NCBI GenBank assembly: GCA_965261425.1 | Contig: OZ253452.1 | Location: 673,160-737,159, forward strand | Reading direction: 5' to 3' | DNA length: 64,000 nt | From: Candidatus Spongiihabitans sp. | GTDB taxonomy: Bacteria; Pseudomonadota; Gammaproteobacteria; Arenicellales; Poriferihabitantaceae | Part shown: positions 2,795-44,808 of the stretch, one piece after another | Position numbering within the stretch: position 1 is the first letter of the stretch | Layout: every line of letters begins with the position of its first letter | Notes under the pieces: model-generated | Database searches by the model: none | What the model was told of the DNA's origin: nothing | The model's input: the letters and a program-made list of their open reading frames with translations, nothing else | Position numbers and translations under genes: made by a program

Positions 2795-2805
2795 TCGGGT
2801 TTATA

Positions 2806-3253: not shown

Positions 3254-3323
3254 TCATGTCGGTAAAATGTAATTAGGGCACCCACTGTATTCTTCATAGA
3301 CCCGATCCTTTTTATGTTTAGCG

Positions 3324-4937: not shown

Positions 4938-4986
4938 GGTTTCCTCGTTATGGGCGGTAAATATGCGTTTTATTGTAACAAATATT

Positions 4987-5063
4987 TGATAATTGAAAAT
5001 TGAGAATTGAAAATGGACGGTAAATTGATAATTGATAATTGATAATTGATAATTGAAAATGAT
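4987..5063. repeat. Heptamer-periodic tandem repeats (ATTGAAA / ATTGATA variants)
   Basis: Direct reading: aattgaaaattgagaattgaaaat...aattgataattgataattgataattgataattgaaaat. Confidence 0.9.
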
Positions 5064-5160
5064 AGTTAGATTTTGAAAAGAATATTTGACTGATTTCCTG
5101 CTTCCGTGTGGTGACTACCGAAAGTGTGGCTTTGGCCGCGCCACAAACAAGCCGGACTTA

Positions 5161-5255
5161 TGTACAGGATGTACGGGCAAATAATTGCTCCTGCATTATT
5201 TGCACTTCCGCCATCCATGGCGGTCGTATGCCGATTTTGCAGGAGCAAAAATCGG
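5161..5255 (+). mobile_element. Hairpin-module miniature element, 95-nt form (45-nt core plus 50-nt module B at 5177-5226)
   Basis: Identical to the 45-nt copy at 20855-20899 except for a 50-nt block inserted between GTACGG and TATGCC. TA lies on both sides (5159-5160 and 5256-5257). Confidence 0.8.
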
Positions 5256-5429
5256 TAAAGTCCCGCTTCCGAGATTATGCGAGAATCCAACATTCGTAGC
5301 TCCGTAGGAGCGGTATCTTTCTTTTGTGTCGCTCCTACGGAGCTTTGGCTGTCTCATTTATTTGTGCTACAAAGGTGTCATCCCTACGGGATTTTACTCA
5401 ATTCTTAATTTTCAATTATCAATTAAATC

Positions 5430-5517
5430 GAGACTGTGTAAAAATCCAATATTAGTCATTCCTAACCCCCCTTGCCCCCCTTATCAGGGGGGAATTGAGT
5501 GGAAAGTCCCTCTGATA
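5430..5517. repeat. GAGACTGTG module plus the intact arm of a long palindromic repeat (CCTTGCCCCCCTTATCAGGGGGG...)
   Basis: 5463-5517 is the reverse complement of the sequence flanking the IS110 left end at 6868-6890. It contains the uninterrupted IS110 target string. Confidence 0.75.
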
Positions 5518-5607
5518 AGATACTGTGTTAAAAATCCACTTATTTTCAACTTTTTTTCGGCTCATTGTTAGAATGACTTTGCCGGCTGGGATTCCACCAC
5601 AAACGCG

Positions 5608-6602
5608 CTATCTGCAAGCATAATTGACATCAAAAGGCTGTTCTGATTTTAATACCCCATAAGATATAACCAGTAGTTTCCGCATCACCGCGCACACTGC
5701 CACTTGTTTAGGTTTGCCTTTATCAAGTAGCCTATTGTATAAATTCTGCGTGACTGGATTGTGTCGCGTTGCCGTCAGTGCTGGCATATAGAGAGACTTT
5801 CTCAGGCGTTTGTGCCCTATTTTTGACAGACTACTCTTGTTGATACTACTGCCAGACTGGGTTATCTTCGGATTCAACCCAGCAAAACTGGCCACTTGCT
5901 TGGCGTTATCAAATGACGATATATCCCCCATATAGGCGAGGATAGCCCAAGCCGTTTTGTTGCCAATCCCGCCAATGCTGGTCAATAACCGTACTTGTTG
6001 ACGCAACACAGAATCGCCTACAACCAAGTCCTTGATTTCCTGTTCAACAATCACTATTTGCCGACAGATGTACCGAATCATCGCTTTGATTGATTTGCTG
6101 GCGGTCTTATTCAAACTCACTGGCAAACGATTCTTCTCTTGGGTTGATTGTTTGTTTAACTGCTCCAAGCGCGTCATCAGGCATTGTAACGCAACACTGG
6201 CTTCGCTTTTGGGCTTGAACAGATTTTTCTCTAACTCACCTTTGGCCACAATATGTTGACAATAACGCGCAATGCTGCCAGCACTTGTGCCCTGTGGGTA
6301 TCGGATTTATCCGTTTTATTACGCAACATTTCCATCTTGACAAACGCATGGGTTCTCATTGGGTTCGCCACAATCACCTGGTCGCCTGAGCGATGTAAAT
6401 AATACGCCAAAGCAACCCCATAAACGCTGGTGGCTTCCATACAAAACACCCGCTCTTGCGCTGCGTCCAATGATTTTAGCCATTTGGACAAGGCTTTGAA
6501 GCCTTTATGATCATTAGCAAAAGACGGGTTGTGGTCAACACCCTCAACGCACACAGCACCATCAAAACGTGCTTTAGATATATCAATACCGATACATAAC
6601 AT
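5608..6602 (-). pseudogene. IS110-family DEDD recombinase/transposase split by a 17-nt insertion
   Basis: The N-terminal ORF (MLCIGIDISKARFD...RNKTDKSD) and the C-terminal ORF (...LLTSIGGIGNKTAWAILAYMGD..FAGLNP, Transposase_20-like) are in different frames. Deleting 6283-6299 fuses them into about 325 codons. Confidence 0.9.
6283..6299. repeat. 17-nt cassette ACTTGTGCCCTGTGGGT (equivalently CTTGTGCCCTGTGGGTA at 6284-6300) inserted in the IS110 transposase gene
   Basis: It matches the tandem unit at 2596-2690 and the copies at 44113 and 44282. Removing it gives ...KTDKSD|AGSIARYCQ... in frame. Confidence 0.85.
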
Positions 6603-6867
6603 AACATTCTCCGGTTATAATTGTAGATAGGTTGGATCATTTAACTTCGGTGCATCCTCGTACTATTCGTGCTCAGATTTTTGGTCTTGCACCAGATACT
6701 GTCCGCACTTGATGAAGTTAAAGCGGGTAGTAGGTGCGATACCTTGTCAACAAGTTTAAAAACTTACTGGGGGCTACTGCATCACTACTACCCATCCAAC
6801 CGCCGTTGGATAGGGTCCATTAAAAACCACTAAACGAGTTGATAATTTACCCGATTGGGATCATACG
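6603..6867 (-). ncRNA. Putative IS110 guide (bridge-type) RNA region in the non-coding left end
   Basis: A 265-nt non-coding segment lies upstream of the recombinase, as in IS110-subgroup elements. A long-range stem (6725-6736 paired with 6783-6793) encloses a hairpin and loops. This call comes from the family architecture, not from a covariance model. Confidence 0.35.
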
Positions 6868-6888
6868 AGGGGGGCAAGGGGGTTGGGT

Positions 6889-6915
6889 TTTCAATTCTCA
6901 ATTCTCAATTCTCAA
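6889..6915. repeat. Heptamer tandem repeat (TTCTCAA) x3, overlapping the cobS stop codon
   Basis: Direct reading: ttcaattctcaattctcaattctcaa. Confidence 0.85.
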
Positions 6916-7640: not shown

Positions 7641-7651
7641 CGCTAACGGTA

Positions 7652-8302
7652 TTATGAAAGGACGCGGCTCGAATTATGGCTGTCGAGTTGAAACCAGTCG
7701 GCACTATTTTCCTGATGATAGGCGATGATGCGACTATGACAGGCATACGGGACGCTAAAACTAAAAAGCACACTCGGATCGAGCTTAAAAATGCTGGCAA
7801 AAATCGCTCTTATCACGCCACCGTGAACAATCAATAATATTCGCTTGCTTTTGTGTTGATTGATTAACTCGCACCATGATTGGGTAATACGATGTAGAAA
7901 GTCGCCATATTGATCGCCGCCATGCGGGGCAGGAGAATCGGGTTGGGTCAGCCATGCCTGCCATTGTCCGGGATATAGAGTGGTAATTTCATCAAATGAG
8001 CGACCTTCCCATTGTCCAAAATCGACTTCCGCGAAGCCGTTTTCAATGACGCATTCAATCGATAAACGCCGACTCAGGTGTTGGGCGAATTCGGCACAGC
8101 GTTTGCGCGGCGAAGCGATACACACATCCCACTGCGCTCCCTGCTGCAACAGGTGGTCACATTGACCCTCTAGATGACTCCATCCGCTTGCCGATAGCGG
8201 CGGGTCGGTAACCCCACAAATCACATTACCCAGAACATGCTCGCCATGTCGTAATAAATCAACTTCGGTGCGGCTTGTGGTTGCCGGCTCAGTATCGGGC
8301 AT
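7652..8302 (-). CDS. cobC: alpha-ribazole phosphatase (histidine phosphatase family)
   Basis: The RHGE catalytic motif (VDLLRHGEH), its size and its position between cobT and cobS. Confidence 0.75.
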   Translation of the reverse strand: MPDTEPATTSRTEVDLLRHGEHVLGNVICGVTDPPLSASGWSHLEGQCDHLLQQGAQWDVCIASPRKRCAEFAQHLSRRLSIECVIENGFAEVDFGQWEGRSFDEITTLYPGQWQAWLTQPDSPAPHGGDQYGDFLHRITQSWCELINQHKSKRILLIVHGGVIRAIFASIFKLDPSVLFSFSVPYACHSRIIAYHQENSADWFQLDSHNSSRVLS

Positions 8303-8310
8303 TCTTCGCC

Positions 8311-9402
8311 CTACCCTTCAGAAACACCCGCTTCCTCAAAGGTTGCCATACCGTTGTGCAAGGCACAGGCAGTTCTCAATATGTTGACTGCCACTGCCGC
8401 ACCACTGCCCTCGCCCAACCGCATGCCCAATGACAGCAAGGGCTGTGCGGACAGGGTCTGTAATAGTAACTGGTGTCCGGGCTCGGCAGAACTATGGGCA
8501 AAAAGCATCCACTGCCGCACCGTCGAATTCAGTTGACAAGCGATAAAGGCGGCACTGGTGGAGATGAAACCATCAACCAGTATGGGCATACCGCGCTGGG
8601 CGGCAGCAATATAAAATCCAACCAACGCAACAATCTCAAAGCCACCTAACTCGGCTAACAATGCCAGCGACTGTTGAGCATGTGCCGATTCTTTCGTCAC
8701 GCCTTGCGCCAGAGCTTGCGACTGTTGCGCCTGCGACAATCTCGACAAGGCTTTTTCGATGATGGCTAATTTCTGTGCAACACCCTGCTCATCCAATCCA
8801 GTTCCGGGTCCAACCAATTCTGCCGCCGTAGCCACTCCGAAAGCGGCAGCAAGTGCGGTTGCCGAAGTGGTGTTACCAATGCCCATTTCACCGCCAATCA
8901 CCAGATCAATATCATCGGTATATTCATCAACAATACTTTTCCCCAATGCCAATGCTGCCACGCACTGTTGGGCGGTCATTGCCGCTTGTTTTACAATGTT
9001 TTCGGTGCCACGCGCAATCGGTTGGTCAACGACTGGTGCGGCAAACCTTTGTTCGCTGATAGTGCCGGCATTAATGACCGTTAAGCCAGCACCAATCTGT
9101 TGTGCAAGAACGCTAATCGCAGCCCCGCCGCGAACAAAGTTTTTAACCATTTCGCCGGTAACAACCTGCGGGAATGCGCTGACACCCTCATTGGCTACGC
9201 CGTGGTCACCTGCAAATACAGCAATTTCAACATCATCTACGGTCGGCGCGATACGCGACTGCATCGCAGATAACGTTACTGCCACCTGCTCCAAACAACC
9301 CAAAGAGCCGGGCGGCTTGGTCAGTTGCCGTTGCCGTTGTTGTGCGGTTTGTGCCATATCCTCATCGGGTAGCGGGCAATGTTCTAAAAACCATTCATTC
9401 AT
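8311..9402 (-). CDS. cobT: nicotinate-nucleotide--dimethylbenzimidazole phosphoribosyltransferase
   Basis: TKPPGSLGCLE and GEMGIGNTT motifs. The start is placed at the internal MNEWF... (ATG at 9402-9400), which leaves 14 nt between the cobU stop and the cobT start instead of the ~80-nt overlap implied by the longest ORF. Confidence 0.9.
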   Translation of the reverse strand: MNEWFLEHCPLPDEDMAQTAQQRQRQLTKPPGSLGCLEQVAVTLSAMQSRIAPTVDDVEIAVFAGDHGVANEGVSAFPQVVTGEMVKNFVRGGAAISVLAQQIGAGLTVINAGTISEQRFAAPVVDQPIARGTENIVKQAAMTAQQCVAALALGKSIVDEYTDDIDLVIGGEMGIGNTTSATALAAAFGVATAAELVGPGTGLDEQGVAQKLAIIEKALSRLSQAQQSQALAQGVTKESAHAQQSLALLAELGGFEIVALVGFYIAAAQRGMPILVDGFISTSAAFIACQLNSTVRQWMLFAHSSAEPGHQLLLQTLSAQPLLSLGMRLGEGSGAAVAVNILRTACALHNGMATFEEAGVSEG

Positions 9403-9416
9403 ATTCGTTGTCGTTA

Positions 9417-9950
9417 CTATTTCAATACTTGGGGAATCCCATATTTCACTACGGTTACACGGTCGGCAATTTGTGCAAACTGCTGGTGTAACCACCCACT
9501 TTCATCAATAAACTGCCGACTGAGACGGTTTGTCGGGGTAATGCCCATGCCGACATCATTGCTAACCAGCAACCAGTGTGCCGGAGATTGTTGCAAACCA
9601 CGCTGAAAACTCTGTTTTTCTACTTGCCATTGCTCATGCCATTTAGGCATATCAGAACAGAGCCAGTTTGACAGCCATAGGGTCAGACAATCCACTAACA
9701 ACACATCATCTGCGGTGAAATTTTCAGTCATCGGCGATAAATATCGCCCCTCTTCGAGCAAATGCCAACCCGCGCCACGCTCGCGCTGATGTTGTTTAAT
9801 ACGCTCACTCATTTCATCATCACCCGCTTGTGCGGTGGCAATAAAATGCAGGCTCGCATCCAAATTGGTAGCGATGGCTTCGGCAGCCGACACCGCATAA
9901 CCACTTTTTCCGCTACGCGCCCCACCGATAATCAGTTCAATCATAACCAC
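9417..9950 (-). CDS. cobU: bifunctional adenosylcobinamide kinase / adenosylcobinamide-phosphate guanylyltransferase
   Basis: P-loop GGARSGKS at the N-terminus; 177 aa; operon context. Confidence 0.9.
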   Translation of the reverse strand: MVMIELIIGGARSGKSGYAVSAAEAIATNLDASLHFIATAQAGDDEMSERIKQHQRERGAGWHLLEEGRYLSPMTENFTADDVLLVDCLTLWLSNWLCSDMPKWHEQWQVEKQSFQRGLQQSPAHWLLVSNDVGMGITPTNRLSRQFIDESGWLHQQFAQIADRVTVVKYGIPQVLK

Positions 9951-9979
9951 TTCCCGAAAAATAAAATAGAATGATTACG

Positions 9980-11179
9980 CTATTTTTGTGTTTGACACTG
10001 CGGTATTCGCGTATCGGCGCAGGATGTCGGCAAACTGGAGTCGGACTGTTTTTCTTGTAACCTTTTTCTCTCCTCCTTGATAACCGACTCGGGAAACTGA
10101 CTCATAAAACAACAACAAACATTGTCATCAATCATGCTTCTTGGACCATGCGGATGGGCAATATGACGATAACGCGCATGGGTATGGGCATGGGCATGAC
10201 TGTGGCTGTGATTGTGGTCATGGCTATGCGGGTGGTTATGGTCTGGCTCGGGCTGATATTCGGCATGATGATGATGAACCGTAACCGCTCCGGCTGCCAG
10301 CCGTGCCTGAAAATCCTCCATAAGCCCGTCATAGTGCGCCGGTTGGGAGATGGTTTCCGCAATACGGATGACAAAGGTGTCAATCACATGCGTCTGATCA
10401 CGCAAATAATCTGCCAACATGAATGTTATATGCGGATTTTCTGCCGCGACTTTTTCAACATAAGCGTTGATGCGCCCAATCAACCGACCCGAAAAAAGAA
10501 AATACGGCGCCACGACAACGCGCTTAAATCCAAGTTTGACTGCCATTTCCAAACCACGTCCGACCGATGGAAAAGTAACCCCAGAATAAACCGTTTCACA
10601 CCAGCCAAACCCCATATTCTCAGCCACAATGCGGGTCAGTTTAGCCGCCTCGGCATTGGCTGTAGCGACTGAAGTCCCGCGCCCAACAACAACCAACAGG
10701 GTGTCATATAACGCCCCTGCCTCATGTTCACAATCCGGCATGTCATCCAACCCCACTGCTGCCATAATACGGTGTTGAAATGCCGCAATCATTTGCTCAT
10801 GCAAACCCAACTCTTTGCCATATTTGATGGTCAATCCGGCATGTTTCTGCCGATAAGTCGTCAACACCGAAGGAATATCGTTTTGTGCATGAGTCGCGCT
10901 AAACAACATGCCCGGGACCGCAAATATAGTCCTAACCCCCTGCGCCAACAGCCGATCCAGTGCCATGTGAATATTTGGCGAAGAGTATTCTAAAAAACCA
11001 TATTCAATCGGAATATCCGGATATCGGGCGCGCAACGCCAGAACAATCGAAGCAAATTCCTGCTCGGCAATTTTTGCCCGACTGCCATGCCCACAGATGA
11101 TGATTCCCGTATCTTTAGGGCGTGCATTCAAGGTAGCCAATACATCGTGTTTAGAGTGTAAATTATCGTTGTATTTCAT
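9980..11179 (-). CDS. cbiX: sirohydrochlorin cobaltochelatase, long two-domain CbiX form with a His-rich, Cys-containing tail
   Basis: Two CbiX/SirB-like halves (IICGHGSR... and LLVVVGRGTS...). The tail reads HHHHAEYQPEPDHNHPHSHDHNHSHSHAHAHTHARYRHIAHPH followed by NVCCCFM. Confidence 0.8.
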   Translation of the reverse strand: MKYNDNLHSKHDVLATLNARPKDTGIIICGHGSRAKIAEQEFASIVLALRARYPDIPIEYGFLEYSSPNIHMALDRLLAQGVRTIFAVPGMLFSATHAQNDIPSVLTTYRQKHAGLTIKYGKELGLHEQMIAAFQHRIMAAVGLDDMPDCEHEAGALYDTLLVVVGRGTSVATANAEAAKLTRIVAENMGFGWCETVYSGVTFPSVGRGLEMAVKLGFKRVVVAPYFLFSGRLIGRINAYVEKVAAENPHITFMLADYLRDQTHVIDTFVIRIAETISQPAHYDGLMEDFQARLAAGAVTVHHHHAEYQPEPDHNHPHSHDHNHSHSHAHAHTHARYRHIAHPHGPRSMIDDNVCCCFMSQFPESVIKEERKRLQEKQSDSSLPTSCADTRIPQCQTQK

Positions 11180-11376
11180 AGTGTTATTTTTAACTTAAAG
11201 AATAAGCTTTAATTATAGAAACTGAAAACAGACGGGATTATACCCGCCAAACCCAAAGCAGTGTTAAAAATACTGGAATCGGTCGATTCGTTCAATACTC
11301 TTAGTCGTTTTATTTATATAAATCAATGTGTTTAGATGTTTTTAATGGCTGACTAATTACGCATTACGAGTCGTTT

Positions 11377-11506
11377 GAGACTGTGCAAGAACCCAAATTC
11401 CGTCATTCCCGCGCAGGAGACTGTGCAAAAAACCAACATCCGTCATTCCTGCACCGACCCCGTCTTTCCTGCGAAAGCAGGAATCCAGTAAAATAGCCAA
11501 ACCTGC
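11377..11506. repeat. Mosaic intergenic repeat (two GAGACTGTGCAA modules plus CCTGCGAAAGCAGGAATCCAGTAAAATAGCC module)
   Basis: The modules are shared with 15026-15149, 58951-59074 and others. Confidence 0.85.
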
Positions 11507-11601
11507 ACTTCCGAAATTCCCCTGCCCCCGATAGATTAAGAAAGAACGATGTGTTATTGTTCTTATTAAATCTATCATCGTTTATGTGAGGAAAATTTAT
11601 A

Positions 11602-11934
11602 GTGGCGTGGGCTGTTTTGACTGTTGCGGGGCTGTTCGAAATTGTATGGGCAGTTGGTCTTAAATATACGGAGGGGTTTACCAAACTAATCCCCTCTATT
11701 ATTACACTAGTCGCAATGTGGGTTAGCTTTGGATTCTTGTCCTATGCCTTAAAAACCATTCCCATCGGCAGTGCTTATGCAATTTGGACTGGGATTGGTG
11801 CTGTGGGTGTCGCAATTGTAGGAATGGTTTGGTTTAATGAAGCGGCCAATTTCAGCCGCATCGCTTGTATCGGCTTGATTGTAATCGGTATTGTTGGTCT
11901 TAACGTACTAGATTCCGGGTCGAACATGGGATAA
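11602..11934 (+). CDS. sugE: SMR-family exporter (SugE/Gdx type)
   Basis: GTG start preceded by [32 protein letters not shown] is the canonical SugE N-terminus, including the membrane Glu. 110 aa with 4 TM segments. Confidence 0.9.
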
Positions 11935-13220
11935 TGCCCAACACTGCCCATCCCGCCATCGACTATCCGCAAAAGTTCGTCAAAATTGTAACCCAAACCC
12001 AGTTTGGTTTATTGCCGACATCTGAACAGGTGTTTCTCAAGCAAAAAGCCTGTGAGTTGCGCTTTACCCAACAGGAATTACGGCTGACCAGCGAGATGGC
12101 TTTGCAGCGCGTTCGCTGGAAAGAATTACCATTATCAGGAGACTGGCCTACGGGTATCAATGGCAATGTCGGGGGCAATGTCGGGTCGAAAAAACAGGTC
12201 TTTGCGCTGTTGCGAGAAAAACAAGCGGTATTGCGGGATAGGGAAAATGACTACGGCGATTTATCGCTGAAGGATAAGCCCAAGACGCAAAAGCCGTTAC
12301 TAAAAACCACCGTGCAACCAAAATTGGGGCTGGGTCGTTGTCCGGTGGCTTCTGAACGTACCCGCTGTTGCAATTTACTGACTCTCGATGCGGTGGAGAA
12401 GTGTGGATTCGATTGCAGTTATTGCAGTATTCAATCGTTCTATCACGGCAACCAAGTCAAATTCGATCGCGGCTTCGCGGATAAATTATCGAAGCTCGAA
12501 CTCGACCCACAACAAACCTATCATATCGGCACCGGACAATCTTCGGACTCGCTCATGTGGGGCAATCATCAGGGCGTGTTGGAGGCGTTATGCGATTTTG
12601 CCGAAAGCCATCCCAATGTCATTCTTGAACTAAAAACCAAGTCCAAAAACATCGGCTGGCTGTTGAAAAACAAAATCCCACGCAACGTAGTCTGCACTTG
12701 GTCGCTCAATCCGCAAACCATTATTGACCATGAGGAACATTTATCAGCGAGTCTTGCCCACAGGCTGGATTCGGCAAAAGCACTGGCGGATAAAGGCTGT
12801 GTGGTTGGTTTTCACTTTCACCCTATCATTCATTACCGCGGCTGGGCGGCTGATTATCAAGCAATATGTCAAAATATTGTTGCCGAATTTGCCACCGAGC
12901 AGGTTGCGTTGGTGTCCATGGGGACGCTTACTTTTACCAAGTCGGTTATGAAAACCATCCAGCAAAGACCGCTCACCAGCAAAATATTGCAAATGCCGAT
13001 GCAACAATCTGCCGGAAAATTTTCTTATCCGACTGACATCAAACTCGACTTGTTTAAGCAGGTCTATGATTCGCTATCGGCGTGGCATAACAAAGTATTC
13101 TTTTATCTTTGCATGGAGCCGCAAGAATTATGGCAACCGGTTTTTGGATTCGACTATGCCAACAATGCTGCCTTTGAAACGGCGATGAAAAACGCCTATT
13201 TTGATAAGATAAATTCATAG
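11934..13220 (+). CDS. spore-photoproduct-lyase-like radical SAM protein with an N-terminal extension of roughly 150 aa before the radical-SAM Cys cluster
   Basis: CX3CX2C cluster (CGFDCSYCSIQ) preceded by GRCPVASERTRCCNLLTLD. The ATG overlaps the sugE stop (TAATG). Confidence 0.6.
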   Translation: MPNTAHPAIDYPQKFVKIVTQTQFGLLPTSEQVFLKQKACELRFTQQELRLTSEMALQRVRWKELPLSGDWPTGINGNVGGNVGSKKQVFALLREKQAVLRDRENDYGDLSLKDKPKTQKPLLKTTVQPKLGLGRCPVASERTRCCNLLTLDAVEKCGFDCSYCSIQSFYHGNQVKFDRGFADKLSKLELDPQQTYHIGTGQSSDSLMWGNHQGVLEALCDFAESHPNVILELKTKSKNIGWLLKNKIPRNVVCTWSLNPQTIIDHEEHLSASLAHRLDSAKALADKGCVVGFHFHPIIHYRGWAADYQAICQNIVAEFATEQVALVSMGTLTFTKSVMKTIQQRPLTSKILQMPMQQSAGKFSYPTDIKLDLFKQVYDSLSAWHNKVFFYLCMEPQELWQPVFGFDYANNAAFETAMKNAYFDKINS

Positions 13221-15025: not shown

Positions 15026-15149
15026 GAGACCGTGCAAAAATCCAACATCCGTCTTTCCTGCACCGACCTCGTCTTTCCTGCGAAAGCAGGAATCCAGTAA
15101 AATACGCAAACCCGCAAGGGTTTTCGGTTTCAATTTTCAATTTTCAATT
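15026..15149. repeat. Mosaic intergenic repeat ending in a heptamer run (TTCAATT x3)
   Basis: Shared modules. It contains the hairpin AAACCCGCAAGGGTTT between the convergent malic-enzyme and iolE genes, which could act as a bidirectional terminator. Confidence 0.8.
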
Positions 15150-17960: not shown

Positions 17961-18071
17961 GATTGATAATTGATAATTGATAACTGTCCACTGACAACTA
18001 TCTTTTTTTACTGGATTCCTGCTTTCGCAGGAAAGACAGAGGTTCGGTTCTTGCACAATCTCAAACGACTC
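17961..18071. repeat. Heptamer repeat (ATTGATA x3, then ACTGTCC ACTGACA) followed by mosaic repeat modules
   Basis: Direct reading, followed by the shared TTACTGGATTCCTGCTTTCGCAGGAAAGAC module. Confidence 0.85.
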
Positions 18072-20687: not shown

Positions 20688-20854
20688 GCTCCACTAATTA
20701 ACGATTAAATAAATATTAAAATGTACATTTCGTATTTTAGCGCCTATCTGGCTTTTGTCAAACATCGGAATCAGAAAATACTTGAGCAAAGACTTTTGCA
20801 TCATTCTCGGGAGTGCGTAGCCGTGCAAAGTCCGTGCTAGAACGGCGGGACTTA

Positions 20855-20899
20855 TGTACAGGATGTACGGTATGCCGATTTTGCAAGAGCAAAAATCGG
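20855..20899 (+). mobile_element. Hairpin-module miniature element, minimal 45-nt form
   Basis: TGTACAGGATGTACGGTATGCCGATTTTGCAAGAGCAAAAATCGG, flanked by TA on both sides and by GGGACTTA...TAAAGTCCC. It corresponds to the core of 5161-5255. Confidence 0.75.
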
Positions 20900-20998
20900 T
20901 AAAGTCCCACTTCCAGTGTTGGTAAACTGCCCACTGACAACTGAAATAAAGACGCGCATCAGTTACAATCGGGACTTTAATTCTTATCCATTTTTATT

Positions 20999-26338: not shown

Positions 26339-26615
26339 TTGTTTATAGCGAAAACTAGATTATACCGTTTCAAACAGGTTCGGCAAGCATTTTGAATATT
26401 CGTTTGGAGTTACTCGGCACAGAATAATCAACCCTAAACAGTATTCGTGCCAAGCGTATCGCCAAACAGATAAAAACAAAAAAGAAAACCGCGCTGGTAT
26501 TCGCCACCCATAAGTTTATCGGGCAAAAGAGGCTGACCAGTATGGGGATTACGTTTTGTGGCTTGTCGTATGGTACACTTATCACTAATGCGATTTTATT
26601 CGGGGAGGATAAACG

Positions 26616-26822
26616 ATGAAATTCAATGTAACAATGATGCAAGACGAAGATGGCGTATGGGTTACTGAATGCCCTGCTATACCGGGTTGTGTAAGCCAGG
26701 GAGAGACGCGACAACGGGCACTTGACAGTATTCAGGAAGCCATTGCGCTTTGTCTTGAGGTGCGCTCCGAAAAAGGATTCCCGCTGACTGTTGAAACGCG
26801 GCAAGTCGATGTCGTGATGTAA
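26616..26822 (+). CDS. hicB: type II antitoxin, HicB family (short form)
   Basis: MKFNVTMMQDEDGVWVTECPAIPGCVSQGETRQRALDSIQEAIALCLE matches the HicB/UPF0150 N-terminal domain. Confidence 0.85.
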   Translation: MKFNVTMMQDEDGVWVTECPAIPGCVSQGETRQRALDSIQEAIALCLEVRSEKGFPLTVETRQVDVVM

Positions 26823-27043
26823 TGCCGGTCTTGCCCTCTTTGAGCGGAAAGGAAGTAACACGGGGTTTTGGAAAATTGGGCTGGATTGTGGTGCGCCGCA
26901 AAGGTAGTCACATTATTCTGACAAAGGAAGGAGAGATGGCTACGCTCTCCGTGCCGAATCATCGGGAAGTTGCCAAAGGAACGCTGAGAAGTTTAATTCG
27001 TTCAGCCGGGCTGACTGTGGATGAGTTTTTAGCAGTGCTATAA
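26822..27043 (+). CDS. hicA: type II toxin, HicA mRNA interferase
   Basis: LSGKEVTRGFGKLGWIVVRRKGSHIILTKEG...HREVAKGTLRSLIRSAGLTVDEFL matches the HicA/YcfA fold. It overlaps the hicB stop. Confidence 0.88.
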   Translation: MPVLPSLSGKEVTRGFGKLGWIVVRRKGSHIILTKEGEMATLSVPNHREVAKGTLRSLIRSAGLTVDEFLAVL

Positions 27044-27291
27044 GGAAGCGACAAGGATGTATTATAAAAAAACTACAAAGGCTCACACTGACGAAGCGGA
27101 CAAATGTCTAAGTCCATGCTGGTGGCATGGGCAAACTATATTCTTCGGTTGCGGGATGTTCTTTTTGATTGCTTGGGTTGTAACTGATTTTTGACCACCG
27201 GGGAATCCACAGGGTTGTTTAGTAATAACGTAATTCGACAGTAATTTCATATATACTCCAATTTTTTCGGCAACTGTGATTATCCGGTACA

Positions 27292-27552
27292 ATGTACTTG
27301 TTAATTCAGACCGTTATGTTTTCAAAAGACAAAGCCACTAGGAATAAAATGTGTGAAAATACAATTGATCGCCTGAATGAGCTTCTTGATTATGTGCGTT
27401 GCGTTGGAAAGCTTAATCAAAAACCAGTGTTCAGAGTAGAAGACTACAAGCAACTACATATTTGGGAGCATGCGTTAAAGGGGAAAATCGGAATCCATCA
27501 TAATATTGTTGATAACGATGGTGTTTCTATCTGGGGCGAATTCAACCCATAA
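27292..27552 (+). pseudogene. 5' fragment of an unknown larger gene, truncated by an IS30 end
   Basis: The ORF (…RLNELLDYVRCVGKLNQKPVFRVEDYKQLHIWEHALKGKIGIHHNI…) runs directly into the IS30 terminal repeat. Its last codons, W-G-E-F-N-P-stop, are IS sequence. Confidence 0.6.
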
Positions 27553-27826
27553 GTGCAACACGGTGGTTAAAGAAATAGTCTTTGCCCATCATTTCAGCAA
27601 AGACCTCGAAAGGGGTCTTAAATCCCAGACATTTTCTGGGACGATTATTCATTAAATCTGTTGCTGTTTTCACCGCATTGTCAGTGATTTTATCAAGTTT
27701 CATCTTTTTCGGGAAGAACTGTCTCAATAGCCCGTTATGGTTTTCATTCGATCCACGCTCCCAGCTATGATACGGCTTGGCAAAGTAAGTGTTGCAATTT
27801 AATTGTTTGGCAATTTCATTACACAA
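27535..27826 (-). mobile_element. IS30-family element, right-end fragment (transposase C-terminus only)
   Basis: …YFAKPYHSWERGSNENHNGLLRQFFPKK…LNNRPRKCLGFKTPFEVF is the conserved IS30 DDE C-terminal region. The N-terminal roughly 250 aa are missing. The ORF ends inside the terminal repeat. Confidence 0.88.
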
Positions 27827-27988
27827 TAAATCCTGAGGAATGTATCAATGACTTGGTGGGTGTGCTGGAGAATATGAAAATATTTCCATGCGAAGGCAGT
27901 AGTAGTGCAAATATTCATACCGAAACACGAGTATATGAAGAAGAGATTGAAGTCGAAAATGATAGATTGCCTTTGAATTGATAGAGAA

Positions 27989-28288
27989 TTGAATAAAAAA
28001 ACACAACATTGCAGGGAGTGTTGGGCTGATTTCAAGAAAGGCAAAAAGAAAATTTTAACATTCCGACAGGCTTGTAATTCCATCATTCATGCCAAAGAGA
28101 TACTGCCGTACAAAGTTCCGCAACATGACTTAAAAAGAACCATCGAACTGGTTTATTCTGATCGAATCACTGTGCGCGGCACCCACAAAGAAAAGACAAC
28201 CCGCACATATCTTGATATAATCAAGTTTGTGCAGATAGCCGATATTTTGATTACCTATTTTCAGGAGCAGGACAATGCCAACAGATGA
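27989..28288 (+). CDS. hypothetical protein (99 aa), overlaps the next ORF by 14 nt
   Basis: ORF only; no recognisable motif. Confidence 0.35.
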   Translation: MNKKTQHCRECWADFKKGKKKILTFRQACNSIIHAKEILPYKVPQHDLKRTIELVYSDRITVRGTHKEKTTRTYLDIIKFVQIADILITYFQEQDNANR

Positions 28289-28501
28289 CAACACTTACCG
28301 ATACCATTTTAAGAAAGGCAATAAAATTATCCATACCGGCATTACCAACGATATAGACAGACGCGAGGCAGAACACCAAAGAAAATGGGGCTGGGGCAAA
28401 AAGGGCATATCAAGCAGGTTGGTCTCCGCACGACATATACAAATTCCCGTGAGTGGGAGCTGGAACAAGGGAAACAGGGCAAACCCATTAGGCAGGAATA
28501 A
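28275..28501 (+). pseudogene. small GIY-YIG-like protein gene with a frameshift at an A-run
   Basis: YRYHFKKGNKIIHTGITNDIDRREAEH resembles a GIY...YIG...R...E core. After GGCAAAAAGGG (about 28396-28406) the sensible reading, GHIKQVGLRTTYTNSREWELEQGKQGKPIRQE, continues in another frame to the stop at 28499-28501. Confidence 0.4.
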
Positions 28502-28528
28502 CATCTGAAACTGCTTCGTTTATACCGA

Positions 28529-29367: not shown

Positions 29368-29485
29368 GATACTGTGTCAAATCTTTATGGGCAACCCTTG
29401 CGGGTTTGGCTATTTTACTGGATTCCTGCTTTCGAGACTGTGCAAAAAACCAATATTCGGCATTCCTAACCCCCCTTGCCCCCCT
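29368..29485. repeat. Mosaic intergenic repeat ending in the IS110 target string CCTTGCCCCCCT
   Basis: GATACTGTG.., CAACCCTTGCGGGTTTGGCTATTTTACTGGATTCCTGC, GAGACTGTGCAAAAAACCAATATTCGGCATTCCTAACCCCCCTTGCCCCCCT. The stem-loop followed by a T-run after iolB may terminate transcription. Confidence 0.8.
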
Positions 29486-29909
29486 CGTATGATCCCAATC
29501 GGGTAAATTATCAACTCGTTTAGTGGTTTTTAATGGACCCTATCCAACGGCGGTTGGATGGGTAGTCGTGATGCAGTAGCCCCCAGTAAGTTTTTAAACT
29601 TGTTGATAAGGTATCGCACCTACTACCCGCTTTACCGGTTTTTGCTCCTCGACAATTGCTCCTGCATTGTTCTAATAAGTTACATCCATGTAACGATACA
29701 AAACCGGCATACGACCGCCATGGATGGCGGAAGTGCAAATAATGCAGGAGCAATTATTTGCCCGTACATCCTTGTACATTAACATCATCAAGTGCGGACA
29801 GTATCTGGTGCAAGACCAAAAATCTGAGCACGAATAGTACGAGGATGCACCGAAGTTAAATGATCCAACCTATCTACAATTATAACCGGAGAATGTGATG
29901 TTATGTATC
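29486..29909 (+). mobile_element. Second IS110-family copy: left end plus the first 4 codons only (truncated)
   Basis: Apart from the 145-nt insertion it is nearly identical (a handful of mismatches) to the reverse complement of 6591-6867, including ATG TTA TGT ATC (MLCI). Homology stops at 29909. Confidence 0.9.
29635..29779 (-). mobile_element. Hairpin-module miniature element, 145-nt form (core plus modules B and C) inside the IS110 left end
   Basis: It is absent from the otherwise near-identical copy at 6603-6867. The filled site reads CCCGCTT-TA-[145 nt]-TA-ACATCATC and the empty site reads CCCGCTT-TA-ACTTCATC. Confidence 0.9.
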
Positions 29910-29935
29910 AGTAGTCATCATCATAGGAGGTATTA

Positions 29936-30442
29936 ATGACAGTAGAGATTATGCGAACGGACAAGTCGGCCTGCGATCTTCGGCGCGCCGCTGCGGCGTG
30001 CAGGGACGCGAAAGCGGCCCGACGGATGCTGGCGATTGCGTTGATTTTGGACGGCACTGACCGCAAGACGGCGGCCGCGAACTGCGGGATGGATCGCCAG
30101 ACGTTGCGTGACTGGGTACACCGTTACAATGACGCGGGGATTGAGGGTCTCTCGAACCGGCGTTCGCCAGGACGGCAGCCCCTGCTCAGCGTGGCACAGA
30201 AGGCGGAGTTGGCATCGCTTGTGCGTGAGGGGCCGGATCCCGAAACGGACGGCGTGGTGCGCTGGCGGCGCATTGACCTCAAGCGCAAGATTGAGGAGCG
30301 CTTTGGCGTTGTCATGCATGAGCGGACCGTTAGCAAACAACTGGTAAAACTTGGTTTTCGACGCTTGTCTGTGCGCCCGCAGCATCCGAAATCCGACCCG
30401 GATGCGCAGGATGCGTTTAAAAAAACTTCGCTGCAGAGGTAG
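29936..30442 (+). CDS. IS630-family transposase OrfA (HTH / DNA-binding part)
   Basis: Winged-helix/HTH region (…RQTLRDWVHRYNDAGIEGLSNRRSPGRQPLLS…) typical of IS630/Tc1 N-termini. It ends 17 nt after an A7 run. Confidence 0.85.
   Translation: MTVEIMRTDKSACDLRRAAAACRDAKAARRMLAIALILDGTDRKTAAANCGMDRQTLRDWVHRYNDAGIEGLSNRRSPGRQPLLSVAQKAELASLVREGPDPETDGVVRWRRIDLKRKIEERFGVVMHERTVSKQLVKLGFRRLSVRPQHPKSDPDAQDAFKKTSLQR
30419..30425 (+). promoter_or_regulatory. A7 slippery run: candidate -1 ribosomal frameshift or transcriptional slippage site joining OrfA and OrfB
   Basis: GCG TTT AAA AAA ACT in frame 0. Slipping back one base gives …KK-NFAAEV… and continues into the DDE domain. Confidence 0.6.
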
Positions 30443-30999
30443 CGGCCGTTCTGCCCAAAACGGCCTGCGGCAAACCATTGGAGATTTGGTTTCAGGACGA
30501 AGCTCGTGTGGGTCAGCAAGGGACGCTGACACGTATATGGGCCGAACGGGGAACCCGGCCGCGTGCGCCGCGTGATACACGTTATACGTCGGGCTATATC
30601 TTCGGCGCGGTTTGTCCCGAACGCGCCGAGGCTGCTGCGCTGATCATGCCGTATGCGGACACGTCCGCTATGAATGCACATCTGTGCGAGATCGCCAGGA
30701 CGGTCGCGGCTGGGGCCCATGCCTTGCTCATCCTCGACGGTGCAGGCTGGCACGGATCAGCAAAACGGGAAGTGCCAGACAACATCACCCTGCTCAAACT
30801 CCCGCCCTATGCGCCAGAACTCAACCCGATGGAAAACGTTTGGGCCTACCTGCGCGCCAACAAGCTGGCAATCTCTGTGTTTGAATCCTACGATGAGTTC
30901 GTCGACAAATGCTGCGATGCCTGGAATTTCTTCGCAGAGGACAAACAGGCAATCACATCAATTACATCACGTAATTGGGCCAAAACAGTCAATCAATAG
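30424..30999 (+). CDS. IS630-family transposase OrfB (DDE domain), -1 frame relative to OrfA
   Basis: From AAC at 30424 the -1 frame reads NFAAEVAAVLPKTACGKPLEIWFQDEARVGQQG…LILDGAGWH…PPYAPELNPMENVW, which carries the DDE triad contexts. An OrfA-OrfB fusion would be about 355 aa. Confidence 0.85.
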   Translation, partial: NFAAEVAAVLPKTACGKPLEIWFQDEARVGQQGTLTRIWAERGTRPRAPRDTRYTSGYIFGAVCPERAEAAALIMPYADTSAMNAHLCEIARTVAAGAHALLILDGAGWHGSAKREVPDNITLLKLPPYAPELNPMENVWAYLRANKLAISVFESYDEFVDKCCDAWNFFAEDKQAITSITSRNWAKTVNQ

Positions 31000-31194
31000 A
31001 GCCGTTGGACTAATAGGGTCGATAACGAACACTTGGCGACACCAATTACGATTGGACGTGTACGGATCGTGCCGATTGCTTAGCTAGGACAGATTAGATA
31101 TCTAAAACCGATTTTGTGAGCAGACTCTAATTAATGGGACAGTTAATTTACTCGTAACAACATTTGAGCTTTGGGTTGACAATTATGGTTTTGT

Positions 31195-42897: not shown

Positions 42898-43605
42898 TAC
42901 GCACTCCAATTGTTTAGGTTAAATTATATTTCACTTGATGATATTTATTTCACAAGCGGATTGTAGTTTAGGAGGCAAGTTGAGTCAAGCCCTTTTTCAA
43001 GAATGTTAGCCCAAAGCAGTAATGTCCCCTTTTGACTTCTTCAGGAGCGGTGCGGCGGGCTCACCGAGCGAGGGTTATGACAGAGGAGATAATTACATTG
43101 AGCCATGCAGATGAGCTGGGCAGAACTTGACCGAGTATCGGTTATTCATTCCATTATCGGGTGCCGGCGAGACCAGCACAGGCGGCGCGGCAACTACACT
43201 TAGGTCTCCGGCAGGTAAAACGCTTAACCCACGCTTATCGAGACTGTGGTGCGGCTGGACTTGCCTCCAAGCGGCGTGGGTGCCCGGCAACGCCATTGGT
43301 GATGAGTTGCGCCAACAGGCACTCGCCATCATCAAGACGCACTATGGTGATTTTGGGCCGACTTTCGCGCACGAGAAGCTCACCGAACTGCATGAGTGCC
43401 ATTTCTCGGTGGAGACATTACGAAAGTGGATGATTAAAGATGGGTTGTGGTTGGGGAAACAGCGTAAAAGAGTAGCCATCCACCAAAGCCGGTCTCGGCT
43501 GGGCGAGCTGGTACAGATTGATGGATCACCGCATGATTGGTTTGAGGGGCGCGCACCTAATTGCACTTTAATTGTCTTTATCGATGATGCGACCAGTCGG
43601 CTATA

Positions 43606-43748
43606 TGTACAGGATGTACGGGCAGATAGCTGCTCCTGCATTATCTGCACTTCCGTCTTCCATGACGGTCGTATGCCGGTTTTGCATCGCTACATGGATG
43701 TAACTTAGTAGGGCAATGCAGGAGCAATTGCCGAGAAGCAAAAACCGG
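43606..43748 (+). mobile_element. Hairpin-module miniature element, 143-nt form (core plus diverged modules B and C) inside the transposase ORF
   Basis: It has the same module order as 29635-29779. Removing exactly 43606-43748 rejoins …DDATSRLY|LALHFAPTETT… in frame. Confidence 0.85.
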
Positions 43749-44112
43749 CCTGGCTTTGCATTTTGCGCCCACAGAGACCACTCAATCGTATATGGAAACC
43801 CTCCATCAGAAACTTGAACAGCATGGCCGCACAGTCGCTATTTACAGCGATAAGCACAGTATCTTTCGGGTCAATCATCCCCAAAATAAAGAAATAGCAC
43901 GAGGGCGAATTAACCCAATTTACCCGCGCACTCAAAACCCTAGATATTGAGCCTATTCACACCAATACCACGCAGGACAAAGGGCGGGTAGAACGTGCCA
44001 ATAAAACGCTGCAAGACCGACCGGTTGTCGATCCGCGCTTACAGGGTATCAACTCTATTGAGCAAGCAGATGCCTTTTTGCCACAGTTTATTGACGACTA
44101 CAACCAGCGTTT

Positions 44113-44129
44113 TACCCGCAGGGCACAAG
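44113..44129 (-). repeat. 17-nt cassette (TACCCGCAGGGCACAAG, the reverse complement of CTTGTGCCCTGCGGGTA) inserted in the ISNCY-like ORF
   Basis: The upstream frame (…FIDDYNQRF) and the downstream frame (AVTAQHTDNAHRALL…) differ by exactly this 17-nt block. Confidence 0.8.
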
Positions 44130-44281
44130 TGCCGTTACCGCGCAACACACCGACAATGCACATCGTGCGCTATTGCACAGCGTCGAGGAGCTTAAACTGA
44201 TCCTCTGCCGGCACCATCAGCGTAAACTGTCTAAGAATTTAACCTTATCATTTTGTAACACCGAATATCAGCTGACTGGCT

Positions 44282-44298
44282 CTTGTGCCCTGCGGGTA
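44282..44298 (+). repeat. 17-nt cassette CTTGTGCCCTGCGGGTA inserted in the ISNCY-like ORF (opposite orientation to 44113)
   Basis: After …NTEYQLTG the frame breaks. Removing the block gives …LTG-YGKGYRLMR…. A separate 1-nt indel near 44325 then leads into ATITLCEDG…. Confidence 0.7.
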
Positions 44299-44733
44299 AC
44301 GGCAAGGGCTATCGTCTGATGAGGAGCGACCATCACGCTCTGCGAAGACGGTGCTACGGGTTTGGTTACATTGCTATACAAAGGCAAGGCATTGACTTAT
44401 CGAACGCTCCAAAAGGGAAAGGCCGCCGTTGTGATTGCCGATGATAAGACCGTTCATAACCACGTTGAGCCAAGCACTTCACCGACAACAAAAATTCACT
44501 TAGAAACCCGCACCAGATCATCCATGGCGGAGACCATTAACCCGTTATTCAACCAATACTGCCCCATAATGAATATAAAAAGGGGACATTACTGCTTTGG
44601 GTTGACACTATTTTGAAGTTGAAAATTACGACCCTTGTTTATGGTAAATCTGTTTTATTCTCCGTGTCCTCTGTGCCCTCGGTGTCGCATCTTTTAGAAA
44701 ATCTTGTTCATCCTGTTCATCCATGTAAATAGT

Positions 44734-44782
44734 GGAAAACCCTTGCGGGTTTGTTTGTTTTACTGGATTCCTGCTCCCCGCC
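44734..44782. repeat. Mosaic repeat module (GGAAAACCCTTGCGGGTTTG…TTTTACTGGATTCCTGC)
   Basis: The module is shared with 29391, 63175 and, in reverse, 15100 and 59055. Confidence 0.8.
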
Positions 44783-44808
44783 TATGCTTATAATCCATAT
44801 CATGTAAT

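What the first reader, a model, noticed from the sequence alone, without database searches (positions are those of the whole stretch)
29635..29779. Empty-site versus filled-site pair shows the hairpin element inserted at a TA, duplicating it, inside the IS110 non-coding left end
The two IS110 left ends (6603-6867, minus strand, and 29486-29909, plus strand) are almost identical. The reverse complement of copy 1 reads …CTACTACCCGCTT-TA-ACTTCATCAAGTGCGG…. Copy 2 reads …CTACTACCCGCTT-TA-[145 nt]-TA-ACATCATCAAGTGCGG…. TA also flanks both sides of the copies at 5161 and 20855. TA duplication is the hallmark of IS630/Tc1-mariner transposition, and an IS630-family element lies 130 nt away. However, I cannot find terminal inverted repeats on the hairpin element, so who mobilises it remains open. 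The insertion lands immediately 3' of the long-range stem of the presumed IS110 guide RNA and should disrupt it.
Basis: seen in the sequence. Interest (0 to 1): 0.6.

Follow-up and report, generated by a model that had tools for sequence, protein, structure and literature searches.

The report
Nested hairpin repeat riding in IS110
The 145-base insert in one IS110 end is real. It is a three-layer composite of a small hairpin repeat that occurs in over a hundred gammaproteobacterial genome records, normally inserts without duplicating its target, and shows no link to the neighbouring IS630 remnant.

Summary
The sequence observation holds. Two IS110 left ends are 98-99% identical, and one carries 147 extra bases (the 145-nt element plus TA). 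The junction repeat is really 3 nt (TTA).

The interpretation as an IS630-type TA duplication does not hold, for these reasons:
- The element ends are not inverted repeats and do not resemble the IS630 terminus.
- The IS630 here is a foreign (alphaproteobacterial-type), split copy with no recognisable left end.
- Copy B adds exactly 146 nt to an ISNCY transposase gene with no duplication.
- Eight further filled/empty pairs of the same repeat family in other genomes show 0-1 nt of junction repeat.
- The TAs beside copies C and D lie inside a longer shared repeat.

The element is a nested composite of ~50-nt two-hairpin units. Their 17-mer CCGTACATCCTGTACAT turned up in 119 genome records, mostly marine Gammaproteobacteria. 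The stems covary and the loops are conserved.

A full-length IS110 at another locus (same metagenome) carries the identical insert. So there was one insertion event, and the IS110 then moved with its passenger.

The mobilising enzyme is unknown. A strand-specific, hairpin-guided insertion without duplication is the best guess. On one strand the loops match the CsrA-binding consensus.

The parts
29635..29779 (+).
   Evidence: DNA fold -29.1 kcal/mol, z = -4.5.
29632..29634 (+). Left junction TTA. It is present once in the empty site (6722-6719 reads TTTA).
29779..29781 (+). Right junction TTA. The T at 29779 is also the last base of GTACAT. TA/AA/AT follows GTACAT in most family members.
29635..29707 (+). 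Outer hairpin 1. Stem arms CCGGTTTT (29635-42) and AAAACCGG (29700-07). Its TGCTCC(TGC) loop is split by a nested unit.
   Evidence: The same architecture with different, compensating stems occurs in L021 and L125-L128. L040 versus L021 shows a unit inserted at TGCTCC|TGC.
29649..29698 (+). Nested direct unit: TCGACAAT-TGCTCCTGC-ATTGTTCTA, then GTTACATCCATGTAAC, then GATA
29712..29761 (+). Nested inverted unit: CGACCGCCATGGATGGCGG .. GCAAATAAT-GCAGGAGCA-ATTATTTGC. It sits between the CATA linker (29708-11) and hairpin 2.
   Evidence: Copy D lacks it and copy C has it. It is 82-92% identical to segments in L071, L114, L037, L024 and others.
29762..29779 (+). Hairpin 2, CCGTACATCCTTGTACAT. Its reverse complement GTACAAGGATGT equals the CsrA SELEX consensus RUACARGGAUGU.
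   Evidence: Consensus taken from PMC4347634.
29471..29913 (+). IS110 copy 2: a left-end fragment only, filled with the element and broken at about 29910-29913
5428..6885 (-). IS110 copy 1 (ends approximate). Transposase split into two ORFs, 6602-6231 and 6249-5608. The empty site is at 6722-6719.
   Evidence: Pfam DEDD_Tnp_IS110 and Transposase_20.
29914..31010 (+). IS630-family remnant. ORFs 29936-30442 (HTH) and 30478-30999 (DDE_3). Right inverted repeat ..AGAGCCGTTGGAC followed by TA (31011-12). No recognisable left inverted repeat.
43605..43750 (-). Copy B: 144-nt composite plus a 5' GG, 146 nt in all, 90% identical to A
   Evidence: GG precedes CCGGTTTTT at the metagenome sites too.
43127..44560 (+). 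ISNCY-family transposase pseudogene interrupted by copy B. Removing 146 nt restores ..DDATSRL|LALHFAP.., colinear with a Klebsiella ISNCY transposase.
5151..5270 (-). Copy C: unit with nested inverted unit (5160-5255), flanked by arms GGAAGCGGGACTTTA (5270-5256) and AAGTCCGGC (5159-5151)
20845..20914 (-). Copy D: minimal 46-nt unit CCGATTTTTGCTCTTGCAAAATCGGCATACCGTACATCCTGTACAT (20899-20854), with the same outer arms
   Evidence: It is 96-98% identical to units in L103, L095 and L005.

Best explanation
SHOWN: the 145-nt element is not a simple MITE. It is a three-layer composite of one family of ~50-nt units. Each unit is a hairpin with a TGCTCCTGC-type loop, a short linker (CATA), and a second hairpin with a CATCC(A)TG loop. 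In copy A one unit sits in the loop of the outer unit's first hairpin. Another unit, in inverted orientation, sits between the linker and the second hairpin.

SHOWN: the family is widespread in chromosomes of (mostly marine) Gammaproteobacteria. There it forms solo units, head-to-tail arrays and nested composites.

SHOWN: one such composite inserted once into the non-coding left end of an IS110. That IS110 then transposed at least once with the passenger. This produced the full-length filled copy seen in a metagenome contig and the copy in this window. The window copy was later truncated next to a foreign IS630 remnant.

SHOWN at family level, INFERRED for this event: the TA (TTA) on both sides is most likely a coincidence. 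The target ended in TTTA, and the unit carries its own terminal (T)TA.

INFERRED: the units are inserted precisely, without target duplication, by a trans-acting enzyme that reads strand-specific hairpins. An HUH/Y1 enzyme of the RAYT or IS200/IS605 type acting on single-stranded DNA is the leading candidate. The neighbouring IS630 is not the mobiliser.
For: Composite anatomy and modularity.

Most are in Nitrincola, Marinobacterium, Solemya symbionts, Sedimenticola, Colwellia, Halioglobus and gammaproteobacterial MAGs. Window modules are 82-98% identical to these. The only coding match between the window and those loci (within uvrB, against L007) is 70%.

Structure under selection: both stems of hairpin 1 covary, for example GC 23/TA 12 and CG 19/GC 11/TA 5 at single pairs. 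In addition, 62% of predicted loops contain TCC, against 20% in shuffles.

No target duplication: junction repeat is 3 nt for A, 0 nt for B and 0-1 nt in eight other filled/empty pairs. An unrelated TIR-MITE control shows 6 nt.

No inverted repeats and no similarity to the IS630 end.

IS630 foreign, with a split ORF and no recognisable left inverted repeat.

Single event followed by hitch-hiking: L131 is a full-length IS110 at another locus with the identical insert, identical junctions and three substitutions shared with copy 2.

Strand polarity and placement: units insert into hairpin loops or palindrome centres (L040/L021, long hairpin 1, copies C and D, L128). 49 of 150 units abut an A5-8 run plus a GC hairpin. 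The gene on that side converges on the unit in 55 of 66 cases.
Against: No HUH/Y1 transposase was found, either in the 64-kb window (Pfam on 50 ORFs) or in about 1 Mb around units elsewhere. ORF clustering also found no recurrent neighbouring protein.

IS200/IS605 elements insert 3' of a fixed 4-5-nt target. Here TTTA precedes copy A, C, D and one event in another genome, but the other events have different left flanks.

For event A itself, a 3-nt junction repeat has only a few per cent chance under a no-duplication model. A real TA/TTA duplication in this one case therefore cannot be excluded.

REP elements typically carry a GTAG or CGTC tag. Only some of the units here start with CGTC/CGCC.
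Confidence: 0.55

Rival explanations
1. One reading: the element is a MITE moved by an IS630/Tc1-mariner-type DDE transposase that cuts at TA and duplicates it.
For: TA (TTA) lies on both sides of copy A against a known empty site. An IS630-family gene lies 130 nt away. In one other genome (CAXMRQ01 bin.27) hairpin modules lie inside a 210-320-nt MITE with 18-22-bp terminal inverted repeats flanked by CTAG, the classic IS630 target.
Against: The element has no terminal inverted repeats and no similarity to the IS630 end. The IS630 here lacks a recognisable left end, has a split ORF and is of foreign composition. Copy B and eight other events show no duplication. In bin.27 the hairpin modules are cargo that varies between MITE copies by precise insertions without duplication. 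The family occurs in 119 genome records from many genera. It was not checked whether those genomes carry this IS630.
Confidence: 0.07
2. There is no dedicated transposase. Units are copied into new sites by replication template-switching or break repair at extruded hairpins, using 0-3 nt of microhomology. Arrays grow by slippage or unequal exchange.
For: Junctions have 0-3 nt of microhomology and targets have no consensus. Insertions are often in hairpin loops or next to terminator hairpins. Exact head-to-tail arrays of 51-52 nt occur. No linked protein gene was found.
Against: Inserted segments have sharply defined, recurrent ends: the same unit boundaries appear in unrelated sites and genomes. 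Orientation relative to terminators is strongly biased, 55 to 11. Both features are easier to explain with a sequence- and strand-specific enzyme.
Confidence: 0.2
3. The units are moved by an IS110-type DEDD recombinase. That type of recombinase inserts without inverted repeats and leaves only a 2-nt core repeat, so TA would be the core.
For: The insert lies in an IS110 left end. IS110-family elements lack inverted repeats and large duplications (established knowledge of the family). Two IS110 copies are in the window.
Against: Other events show 0-1 nt of junction repeat, not a constant dinucleotide. The unit ends bear no evident resemblance to the IS110 ends when read side by side (no formal comparison was run). 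The family is present in many genera, and no IS110 was seen beside the units in the neighbourhood screen.
Confidence: 0.05

Closest known systems
REP / BIME / REPIN elements mobilised by RAYT (IS200/IS605-related Y1 transposases)
   Same: Short extragenic imperfect palindromes in high copy number. They occur in direct and inverted arrangements and mosaics, often at gene 3' ends, with no terminal inverted repeats and no target duplication, and they are non-autonomous (PMC3733652).
   Different: Here the loops are the conserved part and the stems covary. In REPs the stem and the 5' GTAG/CGTC tag are conserved. The units nest inside one another's loops. The same 17-mer is shared across orders, whereas REP families are usually species-specific. 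No RAYT gene was found.
IS630/Tc1-mariner-derived MITEs and Correia elements (TA duplication)
   Same: Small size, intergenic location, and TA on both sides of copy A.
   Different: No terminal inverted repeats, and no TA duplication in the other nine informative events.
IS200/IS605-derived palindrome-associated elements (single-strand 'peel and paste')
   Same: Hairpins of one polarity at both ends, no inverted repeats, no duplication, and a preference for single-stranded or hairpin DNA.
   Different: No fixed 4-5-nt left-flank target across events (TTTA in 4 sites, others differ). The units are far smaller, and no TnpA or TnpB was seen.
CsrB/RsmY/RsmZ-type CsrA-sequestering RNAs
   Same: On one strand the units have about one GGA per 17 nt, displayed in hairpin loops. 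GUACA(A)GGAUGUAC matches RUACARGGAUGU. GCAUGGAUGC fits CANGGANG (the latter consensus is recalled from memory).
   Different: The units are dispersed and mobile, not one discrete sRNA gene. Arrays lie just downstream of a convergent gene's terminator rather than upstream of their own. No match to Rfam Csr/Rsm models or to any other family.

Membership tests
IS630/Tc1-mariner-derived MITE | Terminal inverted repeats matching the ends of a partner IS630-family element | tested here: not met
   The element's own ends align no better than shuffles (p 0.13-0.88). The IS630 right end against all element ends and arms gives p >= 0.22.
IS630/Tc1-mariner-derived MITE | TA target duplication at every insertion | tested here: not met
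   TA/TTA is seen only at event A. Copy B shows 0 nt. Eight other family events show 0-1 nt.
IS630/Tc1-mariner-derived MITE | A functional partner transposase in the genome | tested here: inconclusive
   The only IS630 in the window has no recognisable left inverted repeat and a split ORF. Its exact ORF was not found elsewhere. The rest of the genome was not available.
REP/REPIN (RAYT-mobilised) | Short extragenic imperfect palindromes, repeated, in direct and inverted arrangements | tested here: met
REP/REPIN (RAYT-mobilised) | Conserved GTAG (or CGTC) tetranucleotide at one end | tested here: inconclusive
   No GTAG. Many hairpin-1 sequences start CGTCGC/CGCCGC, but D-type units start CCGATT.
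REP/REPIN (RAYT-mobilised) | A RAYT (Y1/HUH) gene flanked by the repeats | tested here: not met
   None in the window and none in about 1 Mb around units. Whole genomes could not be searched.
IS200/IS605-type single-strand transposon derivative | Insertion without duplication, 3' of a fixed 4-5-nt target | tested here: inconclusive
   The absence of duplication is met. TTTA precedes A, C, D and bin.27 event 1, but other events have GAGT, TGGG, CTCC, ATCT or GCCA.
CsrB/Rsm-type CsrA sponge RNA | Multiple GGA motifs in hairpin loops | tested here: met
   On the strand complementary to the 'canonical' one: (62% of loops carry TCC against 20% in shuffles).
CsrB/Rsm-type CsrA sponge RNA | Match to a curated Csr/Rsm RNA family, or a discrete sRNA gene with its own promoter and terminator | tested here: not met
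   No Rfam match. Arrays lie downstream of a convergent gene's terminator.
CsrB/Rsm-type CsrA sponge RNA | Binding of CsrA; transcription of the GGA strand | not testable with these tools
   Needs EMSA or CLIP and RNA-seq.
IS110 family (host element of the insert) | DEDD transposase (PF01548 + PF02371), a long non-coding left end, and no long terminal inverted repeats | tested here: met
   A guide/bridge RNA in the left end is inferred only; there is no Rfam hit.

The most novel reading that the evidence does not exclude
The element belongs to an undescribed, order-spanning family of self-nesting hairpin cassettes whose conserved loops are high-affinity CsrA/RsmA sites. On the GGA strand these read GUACA(A)GGAUGUAC, CAUGGAUG and GCAGGAGC, about one per 17 nt. 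The cassettes would spread through genomes and settle just downstream of terminators. That amounts to mobile CsrA-binding modules that could titrate CsrA or put read-through transcripts under Csr control. Constraint by the highly conserved CsrA protein would explain why the loops are identical across orders while the stems covary.
Probability: 0.2. Interest if true: 0.85.

Novelty: new variant of a known kind. Interest (0 to 1): 0.5.

Why it matters
Taken narrowly, the finding corrects a tempting inference. One filled/empty pair with TA on both sides does not make an IS630-type MITE. The case also shows an IS110 that kept moving with a 147-bp passenger in its non-coding (presumed guide-RNA) end. 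That bears on how much of this region is dispensable or can be supplied in trans.

Taken broadly, it exposes a small repeat family I could not find by sequence in the searchable literature or in Rfam. The family has unusual properties: units insert precisely into one another's loops, stems covary while loops are fixed, a 17-mer is shared across orders of Gammaproteobacteria, and placement and orientation are stereotyped next to intrinsic terminators. If the loop conservation reflects CsrA binding, or a new hairpin-specific recombinase, either would be a worthwhile discovery.

Tried and rejected
1. Cyanobacterial Nezha-type MITE. This was my first guess, prompted by the heptamer repeats. I dropped it once the 17-mer scan returned Gammaproteobacteria and the gene order rpsB-tsf/map-glnD and hemCDXY fitted a gammaproteobacterium.

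2. Rfam. Nothing at gathering threshold except a tRNA. Nothing meaningful at E <= 10 on the element or E <= 1 on the IS110.

3. Literature searches by sequence strings and by CsrA plus REP or MITE. Only primer coincidences came back.

4. Plasmid collection. The element and a typical array give essentially no hits.

5. Search for a recurrent neighbouring protein within 1.5 kb of units in 119 loci. Only pseudo-ORFs across the repeats themselves and chance coding hits in Actinobacteria were found.

Nothing below E = 0.4.

7. Using G-U wobble to pick the transcribed strand. The result was not decisive: GT+TG 10 against AC+CA 5. RNAfold favours the GGA strand, 87 to 43, but that may reflect loop-energy parameters.

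8. An apparent resemblance between the arms of copies C/D and the IS630 end. It is not significant.

9. Recovering more of the source genome by exact-protein look-ups. UvrB and the IS110 ORFs worked (L129-L132). AroC, an ABC ATPase, the IS630 ORF and two sugar-metabolism genes were not on record.

10. The loop statistic (TCC in 36 of 37) was selected on loop sequence and is therefore circular. I replaced it with the unselected count.

Full report
OBSERVATION. I read both IS110 left ends and aligned them. Outside one 147-nt gap they are 98.8% (164 nt) and 97.8% (135 nt) identical. Copy 1 (minus strand) reads CCCGCTT-TA-ACTTCATC. Copy 2 reads CCCGCTT-TA-[29635-29779]-TA-ACATCATC. The gap can slide by three bases, so the junction repeat is TTA, not just TA. 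Pfam confirms IS110 (DEDD_Tnp_IS110 and Transposase_20, in two overlapping ORFs) and IS630 (HTH domains and DDE_3, two ORFs). Copy 2 is only a ~300-nt left-end relic, because nothing downstream matches the IS110 transposase.

WHAT THE INSERT IS. BLAST of the element against the window finds four copies:
- A (29635-29779, +).
- B (43605-43748, -, 90% identical).
- C (5160-5255, -), which lacks A's inner left module.
- D (20854-20899, -), a 46-nt minimal unit: CCGATTTTTGCTCTTGCAAAATCGGCATACCGTACATCCTGTACAT.

Comparing D, C and A shows a modular, nested build. A unit is a hairpin with a TGCTCCTGC loop, then CATA, then a hairpin with an ATCC(T/AT) loop. C is D plus a second unit in inverted orientation, placed between CATA and hairpin 2. 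A and B are C plus a third unit inside the loop of hairpin 1.

DISTRIBUTION. The 17-mer of hairpin 2 was scanned against one genome per species. About a dozen hits are chance coding matches, mostly in Actinobacteria. The rest are intergenic repeats in Nitrincola, Marinobacterium, Solemya symbionts, Sedimenticola, Colwellia, Halioglobus, many gammaproteobacterial MAGs and a few Bdellovibrionota. They are often in 51-52-nt head-to-tail arrays. Window modules are 82-98% identical to these, whereas the only coding match between the window and those loci (within uvrB, against L007) is 70%.

STRUCTURE. In an alignment of 37 distinct hairpin-1 sequences, both stems covary heavily while the loops stay constant. 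In an unselected set, 62% of predicted loops contain TCC against 20% in shuffles, and a further 16% contain GGA, which marks inverted units. Rfam has no matching family. Sequence-string and topic searches of the paper library found nothing relevant. The plasmid collection has essentially no copies.

IS TA A TARGET DUPLICATION?

Event B. Copy B interrupts an ISNCY-family transposase pseudogene. tblastn against a Klebsiella homologue shows the reading frame resumes exactly when 146 nt are removed (..DDATSRL|LALHFAP.. against ..DDATSALMALRFAP..). A metagenome scan for the long hairpin-1 form returned four loci at three sites, all with GG directly 5' of CCGGTTTTT, as in B. B's insert is therefore GG plus 144 nt, with no junction repeat under any placement.

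Other events. In one MAG (CAXMRQ01, bin.27), seven copies of a TIR-bearing MITE differ by precise presence or absence of hairpin modules. An all-against-all screen of the fetched loci gave further filled/empty pairs in Haliea, Solemya symbionts and two MAGs. Measured uniformly, the junction repeat is 3 nt for A and 0-1 nt for eight other events. An unrelated TIR-MITE picked up by the same screen shows a clean 6-nt duplication, so the method does detect duplications.

Copies C and D. They share 15 nt to the left and 9 nt to the right of the unit. The TAs beside them are therefore internal to a longer repeat. No 'empty' version of that longer repeat exists in the window.

Unit terminus. The sequence after GTACA is TA, TAA or TTA in most family members. 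TTTA precedes the unit in A, C, D and one bin.27 event. The simplest reading is that A's 'duplicated' TA is the target's TTTA meeting the unit's own terminal (T)TA. With about ten events, one 3-nt coincidence is not surprising. For A alone, a real duplication cannot be excluded.

IS THE IS630 THE MOBILISER? The evidence is against it.
- Its G+C is 58-65%, against a window mean of 47% and about 44% just upstream.
- Its nearest DNA relatives in the plasmid collection are alphaproteobacterial plasmid IS630 copies, at about 72% identity.
- Paracoccus copies define the inverted repeat as TA|CCAACRGCCCTAAGC. The window has the matching right end (..GCCGTTGGAC|TA at 31010/31011), but IS110 sequence runs up to 22 nt before the ATG where the left repeat should be.
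- Its terminus shows no similarity to any end of A-D, and the element's own ends are not inverted repeats.

In its favour, the bin.27 MITE has IS630-like CTAG flanks. There, however, the hairpin modules are variable cargo.

A NEW FACT ABOUT THE EVENT. Exact-protein look-ups showed that the organism occurs in ENA metagenome ERZ26051151 (L129 is 99.96% identical to window 1-12510). They also returned a third IS110 (L131) on another contig. It is full length, with the same two ORFs and different flanking genes. Its left end carries the identical element at the identical site, with the same junctions and three substitutions shared with window copy 2. So there was one insertion event, after which the filled IS110 moved at least once. 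The insert lies directly 3' of the predicted long-range stem in the left end (z = -1.9, so the fold itself is weakly supported). It evidently did not abolish mobility, unless function was supplied in trans by empty copies.

MECHANISM. Shown:
- Precise insertion without duplication.
- No inverted repeats.
- Hairpins of one polarity.
- Frequent insertion into loops or palindrome centres.
- 49 of 150 units abut an A5-8 run plus a GC hairpin.
- The gene on that side converges on the unit in 55 of 66 cases, whereas the other side is unbiased at 36 to 37.

Inferred: a trans-acting, strand- and hairpin-specific enzyme, most plausibly of the HUH/Y1 type as for REP/RAYT or IS200/IS605. Against this inference, no such gene was found in the window or near units elsewhere, and there is no single left-flank target. 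Template-switch or repair copying is the main rival.

THE MOST NOVEL READING. On the strand that is sense to the convergent upstream gene, the conserved loops read as follows.
- GUACAGGAUGUAC, and in copy A GUACAAGGAUGU. The latter is a 12/12 match to the CsrA SELEX consensus RUACARGGAUGU, the only such match in the window against 0.01 expected.
- CAUGGAUG.
- GCAGGAGC.

That is about one GGA per 17 nt, in hairpin loops. This could explain why loops are fixed while stems covary across orders. It is untested, and the arrays do not look like discrete sRNA genes.

VERDICT. The sequence observation is confirmed. The TA-duplication and IS630 interpretation is not supported. The element is a nested member of a widespread, apparently undescribed hairpin-repeat family, carried along by an IS110.

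Noticed in passing
L131:9530-11300 (ENA ERZ26051151 ctg163573); window 5608-6602: Both full-length IS110 copies (window copy 1 and L131) encode the identical 123-aa and 213-aa ORFs, overlapping by 19 nt. The split transposase is therefore shared by copies at different loci. It may be a programmed frameshift, or a defect inherited and complemented in trans.
   Followed up: partly
window 2728-2758, 4982-5064, 5398-5424, 6891-6915, 15128-15149, 17962-17983, 63285-63331: Many intergenic arrays of heptamer tandem repeats (TCAATTN / GAGAATT type). IS110 copy 1 has such arrays on both sides.
   Followed up: no
window 29386-29470, 44733-44787, 63164-63255, 5428-5466; L131:11170-11271: A second repeat family: GGAAAACCCTTGCGGGTTTGGCTATTTTACTGGRTTCCTGC.. 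followed by AGGAATGAC..ATATTGGATTTTTGCACAGTCTC. IS110 ends abut it in all three copies, through the right end in copy 1 and the left end in copy 2. It is probably the IS110 target. At 29430 the second half is inverted relative to 63210.
   Followed up: partly
window 29914-31012: The IS630-family element has 58-65% G+C and about 72% DNA identity to Paracoccus plasmid copies. Its right inverted repeat plus TA is intact, and its left inverted repeat is not recognisable. The junction with the IS110 fragment reads CAG-TA-GTC, so an internal deletion of the left end after a TA insertion is possible. The IS110 sequence does not resume after the right end.
   Followed up: partly
window 43127-44560: The ISNCY-family transposase pseudogene carries several further frameshifts and stops besides the copy B insertion.
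   Followed up: partly
window 26600-28510: A stretch without long ORFs between trpB and iolB holds a HicB-like ORF (26616-26822), a HicA-like ORF (26822-27043), an IS30-like C-terminal fragment (27542-27826, -) and a GIY-YIG-like fragment (28275-28508). These are judged from the ORF translations only.
   Followed up: no
window 2596-2691: A perfect 17-nt tandem repeat, 5.6 copies (CTTGTGCCCTGCGGGTG), between the uvrB start and the next gene upstream.
   Followed up: no
L008, L018, L053, L068, L080, L109, L119: A 22-23-nt mini-module, CGCCTAAAGCGCCTACTGTTGG (a small hairpin plus a tail), is present or absent at precise positions inside hairpin units and MITE copies, with 0 nt of junction repeat. 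This is an even smaller layer of the same nesting behaviour.
   Followed up: partly
L008, L011, L018, L053, L056, L068, L080 (MAG CAXMRQ01 bin.27): A 210-320-nt MITE with terminal inverted repeats GAGTCTGTCGGACTTAGG, mostly flanked by CTAG, carries the hairpin modules as internal cargo.
   Followed up: partly
L047:5678-5817 vs L019:7059-7064: An unrelated 140-nt MITE in Marinobacterium zhoushanense has inverted repeats GGCACCTC.AAAAACC and a 6-bp duplication CTGGAG. It is absent from the orthologous site in M. lacunae.
   Followed up: no
L131:9905-9917: The filled IS110 left end in L131 has an extra 13 nt (ACCAAAAACCTGA, a near-duplication of the adjacent ACCAAAAATCTGA) compared with both window copies.
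   Followed up: no
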